From Escherichia coli O127:H6 str. E2348/69 (GTDB taxonomy: Bacteria > Pseudomonadota > Gammaproteobacteria > Enterobacterales > Enterobacteriaceae), in the NCBI RefSeq assembly GCF_000026545.1, contig NC_011601.1: a stretch of 64,000 bases of DNA. One strand, given 5' to 3'. A program made the position numbers. Position 1 is the first letter of the stretch. Each line of letters starts with the position of its first letter. Shown in pieces: positions 62,801 through 64,000 of this stretch.

Positions 62801-64000
62801 TCTTTGTTGATCACCCCTTCGCGCCCGGCTGGTAACGTCGTGGCATACGTTCCGGCACGCGCGGACTGATGGCCCTGGTTGATATCCCACGCGTCAGCCT
62901 GGGTTTTGTCGAGGTTGCCATACAAGCGGAAGCTGAATTCGTCGCCCAGCGGACCGGTCAGGCTGAAGTTGGTGCGTTTGGTGGCACCTTCCTCTTTATG
63001 TTCTGGCGCATTGAAATAAGCATCCCAGGAGCCGTGCCACTCACCGCTGCCTTTTTTGGTAATGATGTTAACCACGCCGCCCGCCGCGCCGTTGCCATAA
63101 CGCGCAGCTGCCGGACCACGTAGAACTTCAATACGTTCAATCATTTCAGGCGGCACCCAGGAGGTATCACCACGGGTATCGCGCTCGCCACGCCAGCCCT
63201 GACGCACAGAGTTACGGCTGCTTACCGGCTTGCCGTCAATCAAAATCAGCGTGTTTTCCGGACCCATGCCGCGAATATCAATCTGGCGGTTATTACCACG
63301 CTGACCACTGGTGGAGTTACCGGTCAGGTTAACGCCAGGCATGGTACGAATGATCTCCGATACATCGCGGGCAACCGGGTTTTTGCGGATTTCATCTGCG
63401 GTAATGGTCGAAACGCCGGGCGCCTGCAAGTTCTGCTCGGCGGCGGTAACAACAATAGTATCGTCATGTGAAACAGGAGTATCGGTCGGCTCTTGTGCCT
63501 GTGCTACCCCATAAATCCCCAGATTGACCAACAAGGCCAGGGAATGAATCTTCTTGTTCATTGTTTTATTCCTGCATTTTTGCCACGAATTGCAACTGTC
63601 GGGCATGGTCGTCATCAACACGACGCATCCCGCTACCGCGAAAACCTTTGATCCTGAAAGACACGCAGTGCAGCTGATTAATTAATGTCCGCGCTTCCCA
63701 CGACGCGCCATTACGCTATTGCAAATACAAATAGTTATCAATAATATTATCAATATATTTCTGCAATCAATAAAAAATTGCACAGTAAACATGGGGTTAT
63801 GGTGTGACGGCGTTAAAAGTAGGAAGTGAGAGCTGGTGGCAGTCGAAACATGGCCCGGAATGGCAACGTCTGAATGACGAAATGTTTGAGGTCACTTTCT
63901 GGTGGCGTGATCCCCAGGGTTCTGAAGAATACTCGACGATAAAGCGCGTATGGGTCTATATCACTGGCGTGACCGATCACCATCAGAACAGCCAGCCCCG

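What the first reader, a model, noticed from the sequence alone, without database searches (positions are those of the whole stretch)
63562..63803. Fur-box-containing bidirectional control region between fepA and fes
An AT-rich stretch with a Fur-box-like sequence (63736..63756) separates the divergent fepA and fes starts, as expected for iron-regulated enterobactin genes. The downstream entD is separated from fepA by a BIME, which could modulate read-through.
Basis: partly seen in the sequence, partly recalled or inferred. Interest (0 to 1): 0.2.

Follow-up and report, generated by a model that had tools for sequence, protein, structure and literature searches.

The report
Known Fur-controlled fepA-fes divergent promoter
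This is the textbook iron-repressed, two-way promoter between the E. coli enterobactin receptor gene fepA and the esterase gene fes, present here in strain E2348/69 in almost unchanged form, so it is real but ordinary.

Summary
The window is E. coli O127:H6 E2348/69. Positions 63562..63803 are exactly the 242-bp spacer between divergent fepA (61321..63561, -) and fes (63804.., +).

The classical 19-bp consensus matches only 12/19, which is not exceptional alone. However, the stretch holds the best GATAAT-hexamer array of the whole 64 kb (63734..63757, 20/24). No dinucleotide shuffle of the AT-rich stretch reached that score (0/2000).

A 39-bp block (63713..63751) is nearly invariant across Escherichia, Citrobacter, Leclercia, Kluyvera and Enterobacter, while the flanks diverge. 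One fes promoter and two tandem fepA promoters overlap inside this block, so Fur occupancy can shut all three.

The GC-normal half (63562..63707) is not spacer. It is the 146-nt fepA 5'UTR, a published small-RNA regulatory hub. The fepA-entD BIME is also real (two inverted REPs, 61184..61281).

The only local oddity is a rare G-to-A change at 63727 inside the operator, found in 6 of 5381 E. coli records.

Verdict: observation confirmed, interpretation supported, already known, low interest.

The parts
61321..63561 (-). fepA coding sequence (ferric enterobactin outer-membrane receptor, 746 aa)
   Evidence: RefSeq annotation of the identical record. 99.2% identical to K-12 b0584 by tblastn.
63804..64000 (+). 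5' part of the fes coding sequence (enterochelin esterase), GTG start. It runs off the window end.
   Evidence: RefSeq annotation. The GTG and the upstream RRGGT Shine-Dalgarno (63793..63797) are conserved in alignment A2.
63562..63803 (.). fepA-fes intergenic region (242 bp), the finding as given
   Evidence: Aligns to K-12 MG1655 without indels, with 5 SNPs at 63674, 63677, 63703, 63727 and 63772.
63712..63759 (.). Fur operator: the DNase I footprint reported for K-12, mapped onto the window
   Evidence: Chen 2007 Table 3 lists the Hunt 1994 footprint as NC_000913.2 611868-611915, with 4 overlapping Fur sites. Mapped through the indel-free alignment. 19% GC.
63713..63751 (.). Phylogenetic footprint: a 39-bp block that is nearly invariant across genera, ACGCTATTGCAAAT[G/A][C/A]AAATA[G/A]TTATCAATAATATTATC
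   Evidence: 14-genome alignment A2. The 34-nt pattern has an exact hit in 19 loci at a fixed distance from fes.
63734..63757 (.). Best GATAAT-type hexamer array in the window: GTTATC AATAAT ATTATC AATATA (20/24)
   Evidence: Unique top score among all window positions. 0 of 2000 dinucleotide shuffles reach it.
63719..63747 (+). fes promoter candidate: -35 TTGCAA (63719..63724), 17-bp spacer, -10 TAATAT (63742..63747), predicted start near 63754
   Evidence: Hexamer scan. Consistent with the fepA and fes starts lying 19 bp apart, as stated in PMC4469952. The start site was not measured here.
63741..63770 (-). Upstream fepA promoter: -35 TTGATT (63770..63765), 18-bp spacer, -10 TATTAT (63746..63741), predicted start near 63734
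   Evidence: Promoter scans. The ROSE paper reports a fepA start with a -10 TATTAT that is active in vitro with E-sigma70 and in vivo only in a fur deletion (PMC10301672).
63713..63741 (-). Downstream fepA promoter candidate: -35 TTGATA (63741..63736), 17-bp spacer, -10 TAGCGT (63718..63713), start near 63707
   Evidence: Hexamer scan. The predicted start coincides with the predominant -146 5' end of fepA mRNA (PMC11979758). Whether that end is a true start or a processing product was not tested here.
63562..63707 (-). 146-nt fepA 5'UTR: stem-loop I (63707..63690) and a three-way junction (II-a 63676..63671 pairing with 63598..63593, II-b 63669..63635, II-c 63632..63600)
   Evidence: The MFE fold reproduces the probed structure described in PMC11979758. 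[quoted passage not shown]
63727..63727 (.). Rare SNP inside the operator (A here, G in K-12 and in nearly all E. coli)
   Evidence: The exact 48-mer occurs in only 6 of 5381 records. The change removes one consensus match in two 19-mer registers and in one 7-1-7 half-site.
61184..61281 (-). BIME in the fepA-entD spacer: REP 61281..61248, 35-nt linker 61247..61213, inverted REP 61212..61184
   Evidence: Rfam ES036 hit at 61205..61246. The spacer RNA folds at -66.7 kcal/mol, z = -4.9.
60526..61146 (-). entD coding sequence (phosphopantetheinyl transferase), downstream of fepA on the same strand
   Evidence: RefSeq annotation. fepA-entD is named as an operon in PMC4676285.

Best explanation
This is the well-characterised, compact, Fur-repressed bidirectional promoter-operator of the enterobactin cluster.

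Proposed mechanism:
- Within about 50 bp (63712..63759), one fes promoter on the + strand and two tandem fepA promoters on the - strand interdigitate. The fes -35 lies back-to-back with the downstream fepA -10. The fes -10 overlaps the upstream fepA -10.
- When iron is sufficient, Fe2+-Fur dimers bind the overlapping hexamer array that covers this stretch. They exclude RNA polymerase from all three promoters at once, so fepA-entD and fes-ybdZ-entF are co-repressed.
- When iron is scarce, Fur leaves and both directions fire.
- The remaining 146 nt towards fepA is transcribed as a structured 5'UTR. It adds a second, post-transcriptional layer through the small RNAs RprA, RybB, SdsR, ArrS and RseX with Hfq. 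OmrA and OmrB also repress fepA, but they pair in the early coding sequence rather than in the UTR.

Shown here: gene identities and coordinates, hexamer-array statistics, the cross-genus invariance of the operator, the promoter hexamers, and the RNA fold.

Taken from the literature on K-12, whose sequence differs at one base within the footprint: Fur footprinting, Fur-dependent start sites, the -146 5' end, and the sRNA control.

Inferred: that the E2348/69 copy behaves the same way.
For: - Identity and coordinates of fepA and fes.
- Indel-free alignment to K-12 with 5 SNPs, only one of them in the footprint.
- K-12 footprint coordinates and 4 overlapping Fur sites from Chen 2007 Table 3, citing Hunt 1994.
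- Top-ranked hexamer array of the 64-kb window, not explained by composition (0/2000 shuffles).
- The 39-bp block 63713..63751 is nearly invariant across at least 5 genera while the flanks diverge with indels. Related cores occur in Mangrovibacter and Rahnella.
- Promoter hexamers on both strands lie inside the block.
- The fepA start with -10 TATTAT is silent in wild type and active in a fur deletion and in vitro (PMC10301672).
- fepA-entD is among the operons that combine Fur ChIP-seq binding with Fur-dependent expression, and a fepA promoter-lacZ fusion is Fur-repressed (PMC4676285).
- The fepA and fes start points are 19 bp apart (PMC4469952), which matches the predicted 63734 and 63754.
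- The -146 5' end and the UTR structure and function (PMC11979758) are reproduced by the fold.
Against: - The classical 19-bp Fur consensus matches only 12/19 here (13/19 in K-12). Many such matches occur by chance in the window.
- Conservation of the block cannot separate selection on the Fur sites from selection on the three overlapping promoters.
- No experiment was done on the E2348/69 allele, which carries a rare G-to-A change at 63727 inside the operator.
- The primary papers (Hunt 1994, Escolar 1998) could not be read. Promoter assignments therefore rest on my hexamer scan plus secondary citations.
Confidence: 0.95

Rival explanations
1. The AT-rich stretch is only a pair of divergent promoters with AT-rich UP-like or curved DNA, possibly bound by H-NS. 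On this reading the Fur-box resemblance is a by-product of AT-richness and iron control comes from elsewhere.
For: The strict 19-mer consensus reaches only 12/19, a level reached by 126 strand-specific matches in the window. The conserved block also contains all the promoter hexamers, so conservation alone does not prove Fur binding.
Against: - The hexamer array is the best in 64 kb and is never reached in 2000 composition-matched shuffles.
- A DNase I footprint of Fur on this very sequence in K-12 is tabulated.
- The fepA start appears only in a fur deletion in vivo.
- fepA-entD is in the set of operons with Fur ChIP-seq binding and Fur-dependent expression.
Confidence: 0.02
2. The rare G-to-A change at 63727 makes the E2348/69 operator functionally different. 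A weaker Fur half-site would give leakier or earlier derepression of fepA and fes than in K-12, so this copy would be a regulatory variant rather than an ordinary copy.
For: The exact E2348/69 48-mer is found in only 6 of 5381 E. coli records. The change removes the G of a TGCAAAT half-site and one consensus match in two 19-mer registers.
Against: - The same position is A in a Citrobacter freundii and a Rahnella locus, so it tolerates variation.
- In the NAT(A/T)AT hexamer reading, the first position is the degenerate one (my own knowledge of Escolar et al.).
- The strongest array, 63734..63757, is untouched.
- The SNP lies in the promoter spacers, not in any -10 or -35 hexamer.
Confidence: 0.08
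3. For the BIME side-claim: the element does not modulate read-through into entD. It acts as a 3' stabiliser of the fepA message or is a neutral selfish repeat.
For: - The spacer has no intrinsic-terminator-like site.
- It folds into a very stable structure (-66.7 kcal/mol, z = -4.9) of the kind known to block 3'-exonucleases (my own knowledge of REP biology).
- The same element is scattered at least about 40 times per genome.
Against: No sigma-70 consensus promoter for entD was found in the spacer, so entD probably depends on read-through across the BIME. The BIME is therefore positioned to affect the fepA:entD ratio. I found no paper in the searchable library that tests either view.
Confidence: 0.5

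Closest known systems
E. coli K-12 fepA-fes bidirectional promoter-operator (Pettis 1988, Hunt 1994, Escolar 1998)
   Same: It is the same locus. The spacer is the same 242 bp and aligns without indels. The Fur footprint sequence is identical except for one base. The promoter hexamers and flanking genes are the same.
   Different: There are five SNPs in the spacer. One of them (63727, G to A) lies inside the footprint and is rare among E. coli. The strain is EPEC E2348/69 rather than K-12.
The other two Fur-controlled divergent regions of the enterobactin cluster (fepB-entC, fepD-entS)
   Same: These are also divergent iron-transport and biosynthesis operons with Fur sites between them. All three are listed together as Fur-controlled bidirectional regions (PMC4911079; PMC2189734).
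   Different: fepB-entC has two separately protected regions, one per promoter. fepA-fes uses a single compact operator that covers overlapping promoters. Neither of the other regions lies in this window, so neither was examined here.
Long 5'UTR small-RNA hubs (csgD, flhDC, rpoS leaders)
   Same: The fepA-proximal 146 nt of the spacer is a structured leader targeted by several Hfq-dependent sRNAs (PMC11979758). The fold here reproduces the published structure.
   Different: Three of the sRNAs act through their terminator loops, apparently without base-pairing. The leader is poorly conserved outside Escherichia apart from stem-loop I.
BIME/REP elements (bacterial interspersed mosaic elements)
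   Same: Two REPs in inverted orientation with a linker of about 35 nt. The element is extragenic, sits between co-oriented genes, and is highly repeated in the genome.
   Different: Nothing distinguishes this copy. Its effect on fepA-entD expression is untested.

Membership tests
Fur operator (enterobacterial Fur box) | Close match to the 19-bp consensus GATAATGATAATCATTATC | tested here: inconclusive
   The best match is 12/19 (13/19 with the K-12 allele). There is no hit with 3 or fewer mismatches. 126 strand-specific matches in the window score at least 12.
Fur operator (enterobacterial Fur box) | Three or more contiguous GATAAT-like hexamers, or clustered overlapping sites at 6-bp steps | tested here: met
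   The four-hexamer array 63734..63757 scores 20/24, the top of the window, and 0/2000 shuffles reach it. Six overlapping registers of at least 11/19 lie at 63721..63745. Chen 2007 reports 4 overlapping sites here.
Fur operator (enterobacterial Fur box) | The operator overlaps core promoter elements so that binding occludes RNA polymerase | tested here: met
   The -35 and -10 hexamers of the fes promoter and both -10 hexamers of the fepA promoters lie inside 63712..63759. Only the -35 hexamer of the upstream fepA promoter (63765..63770) lies outside it. The start sites come from the literature.
Fur operator (enterobacterial Fur box) | Metal-dependent Fur binding in vitro (footprint or gel shift) | not testable with these tools
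   Reported for K-12 (Hunt 1994, as tabulated in PMC2189734). The E2348/69 sequence differs at one base of 48.
Fur operator (enterobacterial Fur box) | Iron- and Fur-dependent transcription of the flanking genes | not testable with these tools
   Reported for K-12: the fepA start appears only in a fur deletion (PMC10301672), fepA-entD is in the set of operons with Fur ChIP-seq binding and Fur-dependent expression, and a fepA promoter-lacZ fusion is Fur-repressed (PMC4676285).
Bidirectional (divergent, overlapping) sigma-70 promoter region | Divergent genes with promoter elements on both strands whose start points lie within a few tens of bp | tested here: met
   fepA (-) and fes (+) are divergent. 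The hexamers predict starts near 63734 or 63707 (-) and near 63754 (+). The literature gives a 19-bp separation.
BIME (pair of REP elements) | Two REP sequences in inverted orientation separated by a short linker, extragenic | tested here: met
   REP 61281..61248 and inverted REP 61212..61184, with a 35-nt linker, between the fepA stop and the entD start.
BIME (pair of REP elements) | Dispersed in many copies in the genome | tested here: met
   5 REP copies in the window against 0 expected. The median is 40 places per E. coli genome, which is the counting cap. Rfam ES036 matches here and at 6319..6361.
BIME (pair of REP elements) | IHF site in the linker (BIME-1 / RIP subtype) | tested here: inconclusive
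   The linker contains ATTCAATATATTG, which resembles the IHF consensus WATCAANNNNTTR by eye (the consensus is from my own knowledge). No statistical or binding test was done.
fepA 5'UTR sRNA hub (Guillier laboratory, NAR 2024) | 146-nt leader with a 5-bp 5'-terminal stem-loop I and a II-a/II-b/II-c three-way junction | tested here: met
   The MFE fold of 63707..63517 gives exactly this architecture (one search compared). The energy is not better than shuffles (z = 0.40), so the fold alone is not evidence. Two of the three leader SNPs versus K-12 (63703, 63674) keep pairing (C-G to U-G, A-U to G-U), and the third (63677) is unpaired in the fold.

The most novel reading that the evidence does not exclude
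The rare G-to-A substitution at 63727 is found in 6 of 5381 E. coli records, three of them E2348/69 assemblies. It sits in one Fur half-site of an operator that is otherwise almost frozen across genera. It could measurably weaken Fur repression, or shift the balance between the overlapping promoters. That would give the prototype EPEC strain a slightly derepressed or earlier-induced enterobactin uptake and hydrolysis system.
Probability: 0.07. Interest if true: 0.2.

Novelty: already known. Interest (0 to 1): 0.05.

Why it matters
This region is a founding example of how one repressor site can control two divergent operons, and it was used to build the Fur binding models. Finding it intact in an EPEC genome adds nothing new. 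It does confirm that the scan recognises a true regulatory region.

Three modestly useful points came out of the check:
- The Fur/promoter core is frozen across enterobacterial genera.
- Half of the "spacer" is really a regulatory 5'UTR.
- E2348/69 carries a rare operator allele that could be compared with K-12 in a simple reporter assay.

Tried and rejected
- **Strict Fur consensus search.** Allowing 3 or fewer mismatches gave no hit anywhere in the window. I replaced it with mismatch ranking, a cluster statistic and a hexamer-array statistic.
- **Primary papers.** Hunt 1994 (PMC205592), Escolar 1998 (PMC107206) and Zhang 2005 (PMC545712) are not held. I used secondary sources that tabulate or quote their results.
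- **Known RNA families in the spacer.** None was found, even at E-value up to 1.
- **A CRP site in the spacer.** Nothing scored better than 8/10, and that one overlaps the fes start codon at a score that 18 window positions reach or exceed. Rejected as chance.
- **Upstream small ORFs in the fepA leader.** There is a 9-codon ORF from ATG 63711 and a 20-codon ORF from ATG 63627 that ends 3 nt before the fepA ATG. Their start codons and frames are not conserved outside E. coli and close relatives. Rejected.
- **Literature on REP/BIME effects on fepA-entD.** No paper in the searchable library holds those terms together.
- **An intrinsic terminator or an entD promoter in the fepA-entD spacer.** Neither was found in the spacer.
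- **The 14/19 Fur-consensus hit at 38192.** It lies inside the ompT coding sequence and is treated as chance.

Full report
**Where the window comes from, and the coordinates.** A 601-bp query around the finding is 100% identical to three assemblies of E. coli O127:H6 E2348/69 and is present in 5414 of 5426 complete E. coli genomes. In NZ_LT827011.1 the window corresponds to record positions 480001..544000. RefSeq annotates the following:
- fepA at window 61321..63561 (-)
- fes at 63804 onwards (+, GTG start)
- entD at 60526..61146 (-)
- ybdZ and entF downstream of fes

The finding's 63562..63803 is therefore exactly the 242-bp fepA-fes spacer. FepA is 99.2% identical to K-12 b0584.

**Is the Fur-box resemblance more than chance?**
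- Judged by the classical 19-bp consensus alone, it is not. No site in the window matches with 3 or fewer mismatches. The best matches in the spacer are 12/19, a level that 126 strand-specific matches in the window reach.
- The matches are stacked, however. Six registers of at least 11/19 lie at 63721..63745 in 3- or 6-bp steps, tying for the densest cluster in the window. This is the signature Chen et al. 2007 describe for footprinted Fur sites (PMC2189734).
- Under the hexamer-array reading, the best run of four GATAAT/ATTATC hexamers in all 64 kb is 63734..63757 (GTTATC AATAAT ATTATC AATATA, 20/24), a unique top score. The next-best arrays include two that overlap it.
- Composition does not explain this. 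None of 2000 dinucleotide-preserving shuffles of the AT-rich stretch reaches 20 (maximum 19).
- The AT-rich part is 63712..63803 (26% GC; 19% within 63712..63759). The fepA-proximal 150 bp has normal composition (51% GC).

**Mapping the published footprint.** Chen et al. 2007 (Table 3) list the Fur DNase I footprint of Hunt et al. 1994 as NC_000913.2 611868-611915. They report four overlapping predicted Fur sites there, the strongest at 611889. The E2348/69 and MG1655 spacers align without any indel and differ at five positions: 63674, 63677, 63703, 63727 and 63772. The footprint therefore maps to window 63712..63759 and the strongest site to about 63733.

**Comparative evidence.** A scan of one genome per species with Fes as query returned 37 loci. 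In 20 of them fepA lies divergently upstream of fes. An alignment of 14 spacers covers Escherichia spp., Citrobacter, Leclercia, Kluyvera, Enterobacter, an isolate labelled Erwinia, and C. freundii. It shows one nearly invariant block, window 63713..63751 (ACGCTATTGCAAAT[G/A][C/A]AAATA[G/A]TTATCAATAATATTATC). The rest of the spacer diverges in sequence and length. The 34-nt pattern is found exactly in 19 loci at a fixed distance from the fes start. Recognisably related cores occur in Mangrovibacter and Rahnella. This phylogenetic footprint coincides with the biochemical one.

**Promoters.** A hexamer scan gives three candidates:
- On the + strand: TTGCAA (63719..63724), 17 bp, TAATAT (63742..63747), with a predicted fes start near 63754.
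- On the - strand: TTGATT (63770..63765), 18 bp, TATTAT (63746..63741), with a start near 63734.
- Also on the - strand: TTGATA (63741..63736), 17 bp, TAGCGT (63718..63713), with a start near 63707.

Independent literature agrees:
- Masulis et al. 2015 state that the mapped fepA and fes starts are 19 bp apart (PMC4469952).
- The ROSE study reports a fepA start with -10 TATTAT. It is silent in wild type, but active in a fur deletion in vivo and with E-sigma70 in vitro (PMC10301672).
- The predominant fepA 5' end in growing cells is at -146, which is window 63707 (PMC11979758).

From my own memory of the Hunt 1994 abstract (I could not read the paper), that work defined one fes promoter, two tandem fepA promoters and a single Fur site that regulates all transcripts. 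The anatomy found here fits that description. The fes -35 sits back-to-back with the downstream fepA -10. The fes -10 overlaps the upstream fepA -10. Apart from the -35 hexamer of the upstream fepA promoter (63765..63770), these elements lie within the footprint.

**The other half of the spacer.** Positions 63562..63707 are transcribed as the 146-nt fepA 5'UTR. [quoted passage not shown] This is exactly the chemically probed structure (stem-loop I, II-a, II-b, II-c) published in NAR 2024. The folding energy is not better than shuffles (z = 0.40), so the fold alone carries no weight. That paper shows that RprA, RybB, SdsR, ArrS and RseX repress fepA. OmrA and OmrB also repress it, acting in the early coding sequence. 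ArrS, RseX and SdsR need stem-loop II-b. Two of the three leader SNPs relative to K-12 (63703, 63674) preserve pairing, and 63677 is unpaired in the fold. No Rfam family matches the region. I found no convincing CRP site and no conserved upstream ORF.

**The BIME.** The 174-nt fepA-entD spacer holds:
- a REP at 61281..61248
- a 35-nt linker
- an inverted REP at 61212..61184

The REP has five copies in the window against none expected. The 99-bp unit occurs at a median of 40 places per E. coli genome, which is the counting cap. Rfam's ES036 family hits the linker. The spacer RNA folds at -66.7 kcal/mol (z = -4.9). The spacer has no intrinsic-terminator-like site and no consensus promoter for entD. 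entD therefore probably depends on read-through, and the BIME is in a position to influence it. That remains an inference, and I found no searchable paper that tests it.

**The one local peculiarity.** The A at 63727 (G in K-12) lies inside the operator. The exact E2348/69 48-mer occurs in only 6 of 5381 E. coli records: three E2348/69 assemblies, PF9285, LZHX12 and NCTC9112. The change removes one consensus match in two 19-mer registers and turns TGCAAAT into TACAAAT in a 7-1-7-type half-site. It lies in the promoter spacers, leaves the strongest hexamer array untouched, and the same position is A in some other genera. A functional effect is therefore possible but unlikely.

**Verdict.** The region is the already-known fepA-fes Fur-controlled bidirectional promoter-operator. 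Interest is low.

Noticed in passing
window 63727: There is a G-to-A change inside the otherwise near-invariant Fur operator. The exact E2348/69 48-mer is present in only 6 of 5381 E. coli records. It removes one consensus match in a Fur half-site.
   Followed up: partly
window 47966..47989 (cusR-cusC intergenic, 47902..48057): A near-perfect palindrome AAAATGACAATTTTGTCATTTT turned up as a high scorer in the hexamer scan. It sits between the divergent cusRS and cusCFBA operons. From memory it looks like the CusR copper box.
   Followed up: no
window 60105..60404: There is a hok/sok-type type I toxin-antitoxin locus just downstream of entD: an Rfam sok hit at 60105..60260 and hokE annotated at 60252..60404. 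A frameshifted hypothetical pseudogene lies on the opposite strand. K-12 has IS186 next to this spot and E2348/69 does not.
   Followed up: no
window 61205..61246 and 6319..6361: The Rfam 'sRNA' family ES036 (CssrF) matches BIME linker sequences next to REP copies. In these places the family appears to describe a repeat element rather than a dedicated sRNA gene.
   Followed up: partly
window 35914..36983: A tRNA-Arg gene is followed directly by a truncated, frameshifted integrase and a tail-fibre assembly fragment. This looks like a decayed prophage remnant at the tRNA, with ompT just beyond it.
   Followed up: no
window 63790..63800: The motif CAT[G/A][G/A]GGTTA just upstream of the fes GTG start is conserved across genera. 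The RRGGT core is read as the Shine-Dalgarno sequence. Why the flanking CAT and TA are also conserved was not explained.
   Followed up: partly
window 63690..63710: The GC-rich inverted repeat GCGCG-N8-CGCGC abuts the operator and is conserved in sequence in most genera, although the rest of the leader is not. It is stem-loop I at the 5' end of the -146 fepA mRNA. Its own role is not established; removing it roughly halves control by three sRNAs.
   Followed up: partly
window 38192..38210: The best single match to the 19-bp Fur consensus in the whole window (14/19) lies inside the ompT coding sequence. It is treated as chance.
   Followed up: no
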